Below are positions 13,542 to 16,500 of a DNA stretch of 17,246 nt, piece by piece (the first letter of the stretch is position 1; every line of letters begins with the position of its first letter). Position numbers: made by a program. The stretch is taken from IMG/VR virus record IMGVR_UViG_2526164630_000028; one strand, given 5' to 3'. This DNA comes from a virus (taxonomy: Duplodnaviria > Heunggongvirae > Uroviricota > Caudoviricetes).

Positions 13542-16500
13542 TGACAAGAAGCACAGGTATTAACAATAACTTTCATGGTGATACGAATCAGTGGCTAAAA
13601 AAGGCGACTTTAAGCCTACCCAGAAAGAGGTTGACCAAGCTATTACTCGCTTGAAAAAAGTAACTTTTAGCGGAGTTACATGGACCGGAAGTGAGGGACG
13701 AACCCCAATCTGGTTTAAATTGGATCTCAAAGCTTTTGATGAAATTGGCAACCCAATCACAGGCATAAAATTTATGCTTCACTGGCGTCCTCCTATCGTT
13801 GAAGGGGTGGATATAGTGAAGATTTCATTTGTGATGTTTCTTCATGACAGGCGCATTTACGCGCTTGACCCGTACCCTGCGGATAACAAGCCACACCGTA
13901 ATAAATCTATAGTGAACCATCCAGATTTTGTTGAGGTGGCTCGAGGTCCTCACTATCACATGTACTTCGAATCAGCTGGGGAAGAAATTGCACTTAAGCT
14001 TGAAACGAACATCAAGCCAGATGATTTTTTTGGCTACTGGAATTATTTTTGCGAGGCGCTTAATATCATATATGAAGGCAGCCCACCTTTACCTAATCAA
14101 GATAAATCAGGTCAGCTATCATGGGAAATGTAACGTGTTCAACAGTCATATCTAAGCTCGGGTTTGAATGCCACCCAATGAGCGACACGTTGCTGCGCGT
14201 TATTAGTCCCTTCACATACTACGATGATTGTGAGCAGATAAGTGTATTCGTTCAAGAGATGAGTGGTCAGTATAGGGTTACAGACTACTGCGATACATTG
14301 ATGAATATTGAATCACGCGGCATCCACCTGACTAAAAAGAAAATTGATCTAATCAGGTCATCGCTCGCTTCGCAAGGAATTTCATTAAATGACTCTGGAG
14401 AGATATCTGCGTGGGCAGATGAGTCGTCCGTTGGACAGGTAACTGCAAATGTTATTCGTGGTGGGATTCTTGCATCCGCCCAAACTGCTGATTGGTATGC
14501 TGAGATCAAAGACGATAAGTTCGAAAAATGTGTAATCAGCTACTTAAAATCAGCAGGGCTTGGGAAGCGACTAGCTTTAAAGGAAAAAGTGAAAGGTATT
14601 AGTGGGCATAACATTACTGTTCCGTTAACGCTAAGGAATGAGTCTCGACTAATACCACCAAAACGCGGGTTTACGGTAAGCCTTGCCAGCAGTAAGGGAT
14701 GGAATACTGCCCACTCAACAGTTGGGAAGATTGTTGACTTAAGTCAGGTCGTTCCTGACATAAACAATAGATTTGTAATAGTTGACAGCGATGGGTTAAC
14801 ACCTGAGCTACAGCAACTATCACTACTATTTAATGATACCGCACGAGTGTTGCCATTCCATACCAGAGACTCTTGGATTGAGTCTCTGGTAGCCTAGAAA
14901 AACCCGGCCACCGAGCCGGGTTTTCTTTGCCTCACGATCCCCACACCTAATAACACCATAACCAATTGTATTTATTGAAAAATTGATAGATACAACTTGC
15001 TAAACAGTGCAATTCTGATCCCTCGCCTACCAAACAATGCCCCCCTGCAAAAAAATAAATCCATATAAAAAACATACAGATAACCATCTGCGGTGATAAA
15101 TTATCTCTGGCGGTGTTGACACATATACCACTAGCGGTGATACTAAACACATCAGCAGGACGCTGGCAGCCAAACGGAACAGATTGGCAGGCTCTTTAAC
15201 TTCGATGGTGCGCTGACAAAGCGCGAACAGATACCAAACGAGATGGATTTGGCAGTGATGTGAATTGCAGCTGCAACGACAGCAACCAGAAGATCAGCAT
15301 CTTGCGCATCACCACCAAAGCCATTTCACATGAGGAAAACATCATGACGGTAATCGTGTACGGAAAATCAACATTTGCAGGAAATGCCAAAACTCGCCGT
15401 CATGAGCGGCGCAGAAAGCTGGCCATCGAGCGTGATTCCATCTGCAACATCATCGATTCGATCTTCGGCACAGACAGTGAGGAACCTGTTCAGGAAGATC
15501 CGAGAAAGCATTTAAATCTTTCTGAAAAAGCAATATCACTCAGCAACATTCGTAACCAAAATACCGATGAATGCAGTGGAAGTATTTGTCTTCCAAATGT
15601 AGCTCTTTACGCGGCAGGCTACAGGAAATCAAAACAACTGACAGCAAGGTGACTTGTGTTGGTCGCCAGAAAATGAAATTAGGCAGCAAACCACTTATTT
15701 GAGGTGATATATGGAAGAACAAGCAAACAAGATTCTCGTAGAACTACTGCAAAAAGCCAGTAATGGAATAGACGCGGCTGTTTCATTTAGCCAGGCACAG
15801 ATTCCTGATGTTGTTCATCAGTTGCTGCTATGGAATATGGTTGACAGTCTGATTAAAACATTAATGGCCATTCTAACAATCCCACTGGTTTTCTGGTTTA
15901 TGAAGAAGCAGTGCCAAAGAGTTGAGACAGGTAAAATCGGTGATGAAGGATATTCATGGGAGAAAGGAAATCCCAAATACAGGCCGACAATGGTTTGGGA
16001 TAGCAAAGGTGATATTAATCTTCTTATCATGCCATTGGTTGGAGTTTTGACTCTGTGGGGGATTTTTATTATTGGTGTAGTAACCAATATGACTTGGTTA
16101 AAAATTTGGCTGGCCCCAAAGCTTTACCTTATCGAATATGCAGCATCATTGGTTAAGTAATTTCAGGCCGCATAGTCGGCCTTTATTTTTGGCATAAACA
16201 ACAGAATAAACACTGCACTGTGTTTTCATTCCAACGAGTGAATACACGGAGCAATGTCGCTCGTAACTAAACAGGAGCCGACTTGTTCTGATTATTGGAA
16301 ATCTTCTTTGCCCTCTAATGTGAGGGCGGTTTTTTTCTGTGAGGATATGAACAGATGTCAAACATCAAAAAATACATCATTGATTACGACTGGAAAGCAT
16401 CAATAGAAATTGAAATCGACCATGACGTAATGACAGAGGAAAAACTTCACCAGATTAATAATTTCTGGTCAGACTCTGAATACCGACTCAATAAACACGG

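What the first reader, a model, noticed from the sequence alone, without database searches (positions are those of the whole stretch)
15082..15652. Module mosaic: lambda-type immunity operators and cI/cro combined with a P22-type N and boxB
oL, oR, cI and cro read as lambda, but the first PL gene carries the P22 N arginine-rich motif (GNAKTRRHERRRKLAIER) and nutL contains the P22-type boxB hairpin GCGCTGACAAAGCGC. The N/nut specificity module has therefore been exchanged independently of the immunity module. Combined with the loss of nutR boxB, this prophage would have antitermination only in the left operon.
Basis: partly seen in the sequence, partly recalled or inferred. Interest (0 to 1): 0.45.

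Follow-up and report, generated by a model that had tools for sequence, protein, structure and literature searches.

The report
Lambda-immunity prophage with P22-type N antiterminator
This is the early-left control region of a defective E. coli lambdoid prophage that combines phage lambda's repressor and operator set with a phage P22-type N antitermination module, a real but ordinary case of the module shuffling long known in these phages.

Summary
oL1-3 and oR1-3 match lambda (four identical, two with one mismatch). Cro is 64/66 identical to lambda Cro, and cI is about 96% identical at DNA level. Lambda homology stops at the PL start (15163). From 15150 the leader is P22-like: boxA 15191-15199, and boxB 15210-15224 identical to P22 nutL boxB. 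The first gene (N, 15344-15652) has the P22 arginine-rich motif 18/18, is 68% identical to P22 gp24 and about 23% to lambda N.

nutR boxB is indeed gone. An IS629 insertion and deletion starts right after nutR boxA and also removed tR1 and the 5' part of cII. Intact sibling prophages carry a P22-identical nutR after lambda cro. The whole lambda immunity cassette therefore sits between P22-type nut flanks.

The exact oL/nutL junction occurs in 17 of 5,426 complete E. coli genomes, and the exact N protein is widespread in public assemblies. Lambda-immunity wild phages with non-lambda N/nut alleles were deposited in 2007 (EF120455-61).

"Left-operon-only antitermination" is plausible, but it is a by-product of IS decay. 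The cI frameshift in this copy is probably a homopolymer sequencing error. Interest is low.

The parts
12531..12731 (-). cro, lambda type (64/66 aa identical to lambda Cro)
12758..12821 (.). oR1 (12758-12774), oR2 (12782-12798) and oR3 (12805-12821, 1 mismatch), with PR on the minus strand at 12784-12756
12832..13544 (+). cI, lambda type (95.6% nt identity across the cro-cI block). It carries a 1-nt deletion in an A7 run at about 12902-12907 that shifts the frame. Siblings encode an intact 237-aa CI, 232/237 identical to lambda CI.
13591..14897 (+). Two cargo genes in the rexA/rexB position: 13591-14133, and 14121-14897 (DUF1828). Both give weak matches to the PADLOC candidate pair PDC-M24A/B.
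14900..14928 (+). Likely counterpart of tIMM: hairpin CCCGGC-CACCGA-GCCGGG followed by a T-run, read directly from the sequence. It lies where lambda homology resumes (14896). The position corresponds to the Timm annotated in EF120455-60, although homology to those features was not tested.
15082..15142 (.). oL3 (15082-15098), oL2 (15102-15118) and oL1 (15126-15142, 1 mismatch), lambda type
15116..15144 (+). PL promoter, TTGACA-17-GATACT. The inferred start is about 15151, by homology to lambda and to the annotated EF1204xx records.
15150..15163 (+). Left crossover interval CATCAGCAGGACGC, shared by lambda, P22 and 1H12. Lambda homology ends here and P22-type homology begins here.
15191..15199 (+). 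nutL boxA GCTCTTTAA, identical to P22 nutL boxA
15210..15224 (+). nutL boxB GCGCTGACAAAGCGC: 5-bp stem and GACAA pentaloop, identical to P22 nutL boxB
15344..15652 (+). N antiterminator, 102 aa, P22 specificity class. The arginine-rich motif is 18/18 identical and overall identity to P22 gp24 is 67.6%. Pfam N_peptide E 7e-40.
15649..15702 (+). Out-of-frame relic VTCVGRQKMKLGSKPLI*, identical to the C-terminus of the lambda-type N alleles of CL707, HK544, HK244 and HK542
15711..16160 (+). 149-aa ORF of unknown function with no family match. It is the second gene of the PL operon.
16165..16192 (+). Intrinsic-terminator-like hairpin plus T-run after the 149-aa ORF
16308..16339 (+). Intrinsic-terminator-like hairpin plus T7 upstream of ea10, conserved in lambda. 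From memory it belongs to the lambda tL2 cluster.
12516..12523 (-). nutR boxA remnant CGCTCTTT. boxB, tR1 and the 5' part of cII are missing downstream of it.
12465..12515 (-). 51-bp stub of an IS629 left inverted repeat, abutting nutR boxA
11155..12464 (+). Full-length IS629/IS1203 (IS3 family, 1310 bp). OrfA is 11209-11535, OrfB is 11535-12422, and the ALIL frameshift pseudoknot is 11490-11606.
11071..11154 (-). 3' remnant of cII

Best explanation
The region 15082-15652 is the PL operator/promoter, nutL site and N gene of a lambdoid prophage of E. coli. Its immunity cassette (cro, oR, cI, two cargo genes, tIMM, oL/PL; about 12531-15163) is of lambda specificity. Its N-antitermination module is of the P22 specificity class.

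Inferred mechanism, following the lambda and P22 paradigms:
- CI and Cro act on lambda-type operators.
- On derepression, RNA polymerase starts at about 15151 and transcribes boxA and boxB.
- N, translated from the same transcript, binds the GACAA-pentaloop boxB through its arginine-rich motif.
- With the host Nus factors that assemble at boxA, N converts the polymerase to a terminator-resistant form.
- That polymerase reads through the hairpin terminators at 16165-16192 and 16308-16339 into ea10, cIII, kil and gam.

Inferred history: the mosaic arose by recombination at short conserved junction sequences. These are CATCAGCAGGACGC at the PL start, and the cro stop codon plus boxA on the other side. 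The most parsimonious event is a single swap of the immunity cassette between P22-type nut flanks.

In this copy, an IS629 insertion with an adjacent deletion removed nutR boxB, tR1 and the 5' part of cII. The PR operon can therefore no longer be N-modified. The element is a defective prophage in which only the left operon keeps an intact N/nut system.

Shown: sequence identities, junctions, hairpin fold, IS structure and distribution. Inferred: N function, terminator read-through and the direction of the exchange.
For: - Lambda-type operators, Cro and cI.
- P22-identical nutL boxA/boxB and N arginine-rich motif. Pfam N_peptide E 7e-40.
- Homology breakpoints at 15150-15163 and at the cro stop.
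- Eight sibling prophages keep a nutR boxB ACCGCCGACAACGCGGT identical to P22 nutR directly after lambda-type cro. They are E. coli O103:H2 strain 129 (99.94% identical over 12517-17246) and seven draft-genome loci (99.9% identical). UMNK88 and A41, related lambda-immunity/P22-nut prophages with other N alleles, show the same nutR..
- Phage 1H12 has the same nutL-N (93%) and nutR-cII flanks around a different immunity region.
- The P22-type nutL/N-5' module is in 255 complete E. coli genomes at 80% coverage or more. It is also in phage records deposited as Lambda_ev*/1H12 and Stx-converting phages, which argues that it works in E. coli.
- IS629 structure and the deleted interval.
- Terminator-like sites downstream of N.
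- P22 N peptide recognition of the GACAA pentaloop (PDB 1A4T) is described in PMC12550061.
- In phage L, a P22-type N-terminus with an unrelated C-terminus and a different immunity region is functionally interchangeable with P22 gp24: PMC8022706.
Against: - No functional data exist for this allele.
- N is only 68% identical to P22 gp24, and its C-terminal third is of another allele type.
- cI is frameshifted in this copy. If that is real, regulation of PL would differ from the model.
- The same boxB is used by lambda-immunity phages with a different N arginine-rich motif. boxB identity alone therefore does not prove P22-exclusive specificity.
- The direction of the exchange cannot be proved from extant sequences.
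Confidence: 0.85

Rival explanations
1. A lambda-like ancestor had its nutL-N segment and its nutR segment replaced in two separate recombination events. This is the reader's implied history, as opposed to a single swap of the immunity cassette.
For: Fine-scale mosaicism is extensive here. N itself is internally mosaic and is followed by a relic of a lambda-type N C-terminus. The downstream ea10-gam block is 98.8% lambda-like.
Against: This needs two coordinated events to keep N and both nut sites matched. Phage 1H12 shows the same two flanks around another immunity region, which fits cassette replacement. P22 itself has the same nut types around a third immunity region.
Confidence: 0.25
2. 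The N/nutL module is a non-functional fossil in a decaying cryptic prophage. It is never expressed or no longer active.
For: IS629 disrupts the right operon. cI, O and the phosphatase gene read as frameshifted in this copy. The O103:H2 sibling is also riddled with IS copies and truncated genes.
Against: N, nutL and PL are intact. The cro-to-N block is 99.9% identical to seven draft-genome sibling loci that have intact cI; six of them retain cII, and four have a full-length O product on record. Most 1-nt indels in the window fall in A/T homopolymers and look like sequencing errors.
Confidence: 0.2
3. The N protein does not have P22 specificity. The shared boxB is a generic element used by several N types, so no specificity exchange occurred relative to other lambda-immunity phages such as HK97 and mEp234.
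For: mEp234 and HK106 (lambda immunity, 933W/HK97-type N) are annotated with the identical nutL boxB.
Against: The arginine-rich motif here is 18/18 identical to P22's, and residues 1-42 are 40/42 identical. The siblings' nutR boxB is identical to P22 nutR. It differs from mEp234's nutR boxB, TCGCTGACAAAGCGA.
Confidence: 0.05
4. The junction is an assembly chimera between two different lambdoid prophages in the source genome.
For: The window shows signs of error-prone sequencing. Genomes of this kind carry many similar prophages: up to 59 matching places per genome.
Against: The same oL/nutL junction is contiguous in 17 complete genomes. It is also contiguous in seven independent draft assemblies that carry the identical N.
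Confidence: 0.02

Closest known systems
Salmonella phage P22 gene 24 (N) with nutL and nutR
   Same: The arginine-rich motif is identical (GNAKTRRHERRRKLAIER), and residues 1-42 are 40/42 identical. nutL boxA and boxB are identical. nutR boxB is identical in intact siblings. The position is the same: first gene of the PL operon, downstream of a leader that begins CATCAGCAGGACGC.
   Different: Only 67.6% protein identity and 75% DNA identity. The middle and C-terminal parts diverge. The flanking immunity region is lambda cI/cro rather than P22 c2/cro. The host is E. coli.
Phage lambda immunity region and N/nut system
   Same: oL and oR operators are 4/6 identical and 2/6 one mismatch. Cro is 64/66. 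CI is 232/237 in siblings. PL, PR and PRM are arranged as in lambda. The same overall antitermination logic applies. The ea10-cIII-kil-gam block is 98.8% identical.
   Different: N is about 23% identical to lambda N. boxB has a GACAA loop on a GCGCU stem, not lambda's GAAGA/GAAAA loop on a GCCCU stem. rexA/rexB are replaced by another gene pair. ral and sieB are replaced by a 149-aa ORF.
Wild lambda-immunity phages with heterologous N/cII alleles (GenBank EF120455-EF120461: mEp234, HK106, CL707, HK544, HK244, HK542, mEp332; Degnan et al. 2007, Mol Microbiol 64:232, paper not held; also HK97)
   Same: A conserved lambda cI/cro/operator core is flanked by variable N, nut and rex-position modules. 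mEp234 and HK106 have the identical nutL boxB. The junction lies at the PL start. The relic after N is identical to the N C-terminus of CL707, HK544, HK244 and HK542.
   Different: None of the six records examined (HK106 was not examined) has the P22-type arginine-rich motif or the P22-type nutR. Five have lambda-type N, and mEp234 has a 933W/HK97-type N. No record in the 50,697-record phage collection spans this oL/nutL junction.
Salmonella phage L gene 24
   Same: A P22-type N-terminal specificity region and nut sites are combined with a different immunity region and an unrelated C-terminal segment. It is functionally interchangeable with P22 gp24 (PMC8022706).
   Different: Different host, different immunity type (not lambda) and a different C-terminal allele.

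Membership tests
N-type processive antitermination module (N protein plus nut site) | Small basic protein with an N-terminal arginine-rich RNA-binding motif, encoded as the first gene of the PL operon | tested here: met
   N at 15344-15652 is the first ORF after PL. Pfam PF25694 N_peptide matches 1-102, E 7e-40. The arginine-rich motif is at residues 13-30.
N-type processive antitermination module (N protein plus nut site) | nutL between the promoter and N: boxA followed within about 10 nt by a boxB stem-loop (5-bp stem, purine-rich pentaloop) | tested here: met
   boxA 15191-15199, 10-nt spacer, boxB 15210-15224. boxB folds as a 5-bp stem with a GACAA loop, -7.1 kcal/mol.
N-type processive antitermination module (N protein plus nut site) | A second nut site (nutR) downstream of cro | tested here: not met
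   Only boxA remains (12516-12523). boxB was removed by the IS629 insertion and deletion. No credible substitute hairpin with an adjacent boxA exists on the PR strand. The feature is met in the sibling loci.
N-type processive antitermination module (N protein plus nut site) | Terminators downstream that N-modified polymerase must pass | tested here: met
   Terminator-like hairpins at 16165-16182, 16308-16329, 16747-16766 and 17096-17113. These are predictions only.
N-type processive antitermination module (N protein plus nut site) | Nus-factor-dependent read-through of terminators in vivo | not testable with these tools
   Requires reporter or transcript assays.
P22 N/boxB specificity class | Arginine-rich motif sequence of P22 gp24 | tested here: met
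   18/18 identical, and 40/42 over residues 1-42.
P22 N/boxB specificity class | boxB sequences of P22 nutL and nutR | tested here: met
   nutL boxB is 15/15 identical in the window. nutR boxB is 17/17 identical in the siblings and deleted in the window.
P22 N/boxB specificity class | Discrimination against lambda and phage 21 nut sites | not testable with these tools
   Needs binding or antitermination assays.
Lambda immunity group | Six 17-bp operators of lambda sequence with lambda spacing at oL and oR | tested here: met
   Four identical; oL1 and oR3 each have one mismatch; spacing as in lambda.
Lambda immunity group | CI and Cro of lambda sequence | tested here: inconclusive
   Cro is 64/66 identical. 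cI DNA is about 96% identical, but this copy has a -1 frameshift in an A7 run. Siblings encode an intact CI, 232/237 identical. The frameshift may be a sequencing error.
Lambda immunity group | Immunity to lambda superinfection, and sensitivity of the phage to lambda CI | not testable with these tools
   Requires lysogen cross-immunity tests.

The most novel reading that the evidence does not exclude
IS629-mediated loss of nutR has turned this prophage into a domesticated element. On SOS induction, a P22-type N drives only the left operon (the 149-aa protein of unknown function, Ea10, CIII, Kil, Gam and the recombination genes), while the lytic right arm stays silent. Separately, the lambda-immunity/P22-nut lineage may be a so far undescribed lambda-immune phage type whose N is insensitive to lambda-specific exclusion or competition.
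Probability: 0.07. Interest if true: 0.35.

Novelty: new member of a known kind. Interest (0 to 1): 0.12.

Why it matters
It is a clean, well-delimited example of how lambdoid phages reassort regulatory specificities at very short conserved junctions: the PL transcript start on one side, and the cro stop codon plus boxA on the other. It shows that a lambda immunity cassette circulates in E. coli between P22-type nut sites. That is useful for prophage annotation. For example, 'lambda-immune' does not imply 'lambda N-dependent'. It also helps in choosing orthogonal N/boxB parts. It does not change the understanding of antitermination or of phage mosaicism, both of which are long established.

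Tried and rejected
- **Source genome.** An exact-match scan of genome contigs for the boxA/IS629 junction found nothing. No complete E. coli genome holds 80% or more of the whole window. The source strain is therefore unidentified, and the IS629 configuration appears private to it.
- **Solved structures.** A PDB sequence search with N gave no hit. I assume the P22 N peptide chain of 1A4T was too short to be found. The structural link rests on sequence identity and on PMC12550061.
- **NCBIfam.** No model matched N or its neighbours.
- **Papers not held.** Degnan et al. 2007 and Cocozaki et al. 2008 are not in the library. I used the deposited EF1204xx records instead.
- **Replacement nutR.** I looked for a substitute on the PR strand: a 5-bp stem with a GANAA loop, P22 nutR-like sequences and boxA-like motifs. 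The only perfect-stem candidates on the minus strand are one inside O (10258-10244) and one in the left arm at 16902-16888, outside the PR operon. Neither has an adjacent boxA, so both were rejected as chance.
- **Lambda terminator annotation.** The lambda GenBank records carry no annotation for tL1 or tL2. Naming 16308-16339 as a tL2-cluster homologue rests on memory.
- **cI frameshift as biology.** I considered that it signals a derepressed, anti-immune prophage. I downgraded this because the window has a systematic excess of -1 indels in A/T homopolymers, and all eight sibling copies checked have intact cI.
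Full report
**Orientation and context.** The plus strand of the window corresponds to the leftward-transcribed strand of lambda. Reading left to right:

| Feature | Coordinates | Strand |
|---|---|---|
| Q | 435-1208 | - |
| LpxR moron | 1600-2559 | + |
| nin-region genes | between LpxR and ren | mixed |
| ren | 9155-9445 | - |
| P | 9442-10143 | - |
| O | 10140-11038 | - |
| 3' remnant of cII | 11071-11154 | - |
| IS629/IS1203, full copy | 11155-12464 | + |
| 51-bp IS629 end stub | 12465-12515 | - |
| nutR boxA | 12516-12523 | - |
| cro | 12531-12731 | - |
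| oR | 12758-12821 | . |
| cI | 12832-13544 | + |
| two non-rex genes | 13591-14897 | + |
| likely tIMM counterpart | about 14900-14928 | + |
| oL/PL | 15082-15144 | + |
| nutL | 15191-15224 | + |
| N | 15344-15652 | + |
| 149-aa ORF | 15711-16160 | + |
| ea10, cIII (with the Lambda_thermo element), kil, start of gam | to 17246 | + |

It is a lambdoid prophage of E. coli. The closest complete-genome relative for the immunity/N segment is E. coli O103:H2 strain 129. It is 99.94% identical over 12517-17246. No complete genome contains the whole window.

**Check of the observation: immunity elements.** A base-by-base comparison with the annotated lambda operators gives oL2, oL3, oR1 and oR2 identical. 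oL1 and oR3 each differ at one position, and spacing is as in lambda. PL (TTGACA-17-GATACT, 15116-15144) and PR are the two best promoter matches in the region. Cro is 64/66 identical to lambda Cro. The cro-cI block is 95.6% identical to lambda at DNA level.

**Check of the observation: the N module.**
- Lambda homology ends at 15163. From 15150 the sequence aligns with P22 (75% over 15150-15469) and with E. coli phage 1H12 (93% over 15150-15652).
- The annotated P22 nutL is GCTCTTTAACTTCGATGATGCGCTGACAAAGCGC. The window has the same string at 15191-15224 with one spacer difference.
- boxB is unique in the window. It folds as a 5-bp stem with a GACAA pentaloop.
- N is 102 aa and 67.6% identical to P22 gp24. 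Residues 1-42 are 40/42 identical and the arginine-rich motif is identical. Against lambda N only a 23% alignment over 52 residues is found.
- Pfam's N_peptide family matches end to end.
- According to PMC12550061, the P22 N peptide recognises exactly this GACAA pentaloop with the cytosine flipped out (PDB 1A4T).

**The junctions.**
- Left: lambda, P22, 1H12 and the window share CATCAGCAGGACGC (15150-15163), the first bases of the PL transcript. Upstream the window follows lambda. Downstream it follows P22 and 1H12.
- Right: the window and its siblings follow lambda through the last codons of cro. From GCATAA (the last codon plus the stop) onward they follow 1H12 and P22.

In E. coli O103:H2 strain 129, UMNK88, A41 and seven draft-genome loci, lambda-type cro is followed by CGCTCTTTATCAATCTGCACCGCCGACAACGCGGT. 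That is boxA plus a boxB identical to P22 nutR. The natural, intact form of this phage type therefore has both nut sites and the N arginine-rich motif of P22 type, surrounding a lambda-type immunity cassette of about 2.6 kb.

Phage 1H12 has the same nutL-N and nutR-cII flanks around an unrelated repressor and cro pair. P22 has the same nut types around c2/cro. The simplest history is replacement of the immunity cassette by a double crossover in the two short conserved junctions. This is an inference. Two separate flank replacements are not excluded.

**Fine structure of N.** The last 22 codons of N and the following 64 bases are 99% identical to the lambda-immunity phage mEp234, whose N is of the 933W/HK97 type. 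Immediately after the N stop, in another frame, 15649-15702 encodes VTCVGRQKMKLGSKPLI*. This is identical to the C-terminus of the lambda-type N alleles of CL707, HK544, HK244 and HK542.

E. coli A41 carries an in-frame chimera of the P22-type N-terminus with that C-terminus. N is thus itself modular: an N-terminal RNA-specificity part and an exchangeable C-terminal part. The same has been described for phage L against P22, where the proteins remain interchangeable (PMC8022706).

**nutR and the 'left-only' claim.** Downstream of cro the window reads TAAGTAACACCGCTCTTT and then TGAACCGCCCCGGG..., the inverted repeat of IS629. A 51-bp left-end stub is abutted by a complete 1310-bp copy in the opposite orientation. 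Beyond that copy only the last 84 bases of cII remain. Compared with the siblings, boxB, the tR1 region and most of cII are deleted.

A search of the PR strand for substitute boxB-like hairpins next to a boxA found nothing credible. RNA polymerase leaving PR therefore cannot acquire N at nutR. It must also cross 1.36 kb of untranslated antisense IS sequence.

**Quality of the sequence.** The window's cI has A6 where lambda, O103:H2 strain 129 and seven other siblings have A7. This shifts the frame after codon 25. O has T5 instead of T6. Against O145:H28 RM12761, roughly half of the fourteen further indels are 1-nt deletions in the window within A/T runs. One of them splits a 590-aa ORF in two. 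This bias is typical of homopolymer sequencing errors. I therefore do not build on the cI frameshift, and only resequencing can settle it.

**Distribution and prior knowledge.**

| Segment | Complete E. coli genomes (of 5,426), 80% coverage or more |
|---|---|
| lambda-type oL segment | 561 |
| P22-type nutL/N-5' segment | 255 |
| segment spanning the junction | 17 (15 as one contiguous alignment covering at least 99%) |

- No record in the 50,697-record phage collection spans the junction.
- The exact 102-aa N is indexed in 273 blocks of the public assembly collection. In all seven distinct contexts shown it sits in the same arrangement: Cro, CI, 180-aa protein, DUF1828 protein, N, 149-aa protein. 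The recombination modules downstream vary.
- Records EF120455-EF120461 are lambda-immunity wild phages in which N, nut and the rex-position cargo vary. I attribute them to Degnan et al. 2007, which is not held in the library. mEp234 is annotated with the identical nutL boxB, and the same is expected for HK106, which I did not examine.

The phenomenon is thus established. What is new here is only this particular allele combination. It is common in genome data but, as far as I could find, not explicitly described.

**Mechanism and verdict.** The best explanation is a standard N/nut antitermination module of P22 specificity, placed under lambda-type repressor control. It is intact on the left and destroyed on the right by IS629.
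- Confidence in identity and mosaic structure is high.
- Confidence that N is functional is good. The module is widespread, occurs in phage records deposited from E. coli and is identical in intact siblings. It remains untested.

I rate it a new member of a known kind, with low interest.

Noticed in passing
window 12902-12907 (cI), 10576-10581 (O), and 363, 1577, 5006, 5025, 5982, 6630: There is a systematic excess of 1-nt deletions in A/T homopolymers relative to close relatives. They frameshift cI and O, and one splits a 590-aa ORF into 5101-5991 and 6045-6641. All eight sibling copies checked have intact cI. The pattern suggests homopolymer sequencing errors rather than pseudogenes.
   Followed up: partly
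window 13591-14133 and 14121-14897: The rexA/rexB position downstream of cI holds a two-gene cassette. The first gene gives a weak DUF6978 match. The second has DUF1828. They match the PADLOC candidate defence pair PDC-M24A (E 4e-4) and PDC-M24B (E 6e-7), in that order. This may be an exclusion or defence system cotranscribed with the repressor. Other lambda-immunity prophages carry different cargo at this position: HicAB, an SDH-family Clp-fold serine protease, or a ParA-family protein.
   Followed up: partly
window 15649-15702: An out-of-frame relic, VTCVGRQKMKLGSKPLI*, follows directly after the stop of the P22-type N. It is identical to the C-terminus of the lambda-type N alleles of CL707, HK544, HK244 and HK542. 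It is a recombination scar inside the N gene.
   Followed up: yes
L015 6285-6620 (E. coli A41): A natural in-frame chimeric N. The N-terminus, including the arginine-rich motif, is P22-type. It is fused to the C-terminus ...RSEMGVTCVGRQKMKLGSKPLI found in CL707-type lambda N alleles (phage 21-like, from memory). The gene sits behind lambda-type oL and P22-type nutL.
   Followed up: partly
window 11155-12515: A complete 1310-bp IS629/IS1203 abuts a 51-bp left-end stub of a second copy in inverted orientation. One side lies directly after nutR boxA and the other lies within the 3' end of cII. This is consistent with insertion into an older IS copy followed by an adjacent deletion. TTT is present on both outer flanks.
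   Followed up: partly
L008 (EF120460, mEp234) nutL and nutR: This lambda-immunity phage has a 933W/HK97-type N (MTRRTQFKGNSRSRRRERLK...). It is annotated with a nutL boxB identical to P22's, GCGCTGACAAAGCGC, and a nutR boxB TCGCTGACAAAGCGA. Two different arginine-rich motifs therefore appear to use the same boxB loop.
   Followed up: no
window 5101-6641 (+ strand): A large ORF of unknown function with no Pfam hit. It is 590 aa when intact in O145:H28 RM12761. It lies on the strand opposite to the nin-region genes and looks like a moron. An 18-bp difference in an AAATAG tandem repeat lies upstream at about 4769.
   Followed up: no
window 1600-2559: An LpxR lipid A deacylase gene (Pfam E 8e-40) lies between the nin region and Q on the opposite strand. 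It is a prophage-borne outer-membrane modification moron.
   Followed up: no
window 15711-16160: A 149-aa ORF occupies the ral/sieB position directly after N. It has no family match in Pfam, NCBIfam or PADLOC. It is conserved next to this N allele in all sibling loci. Its first codons overlap lambda homology at the start of orf28.
   Followed up: no
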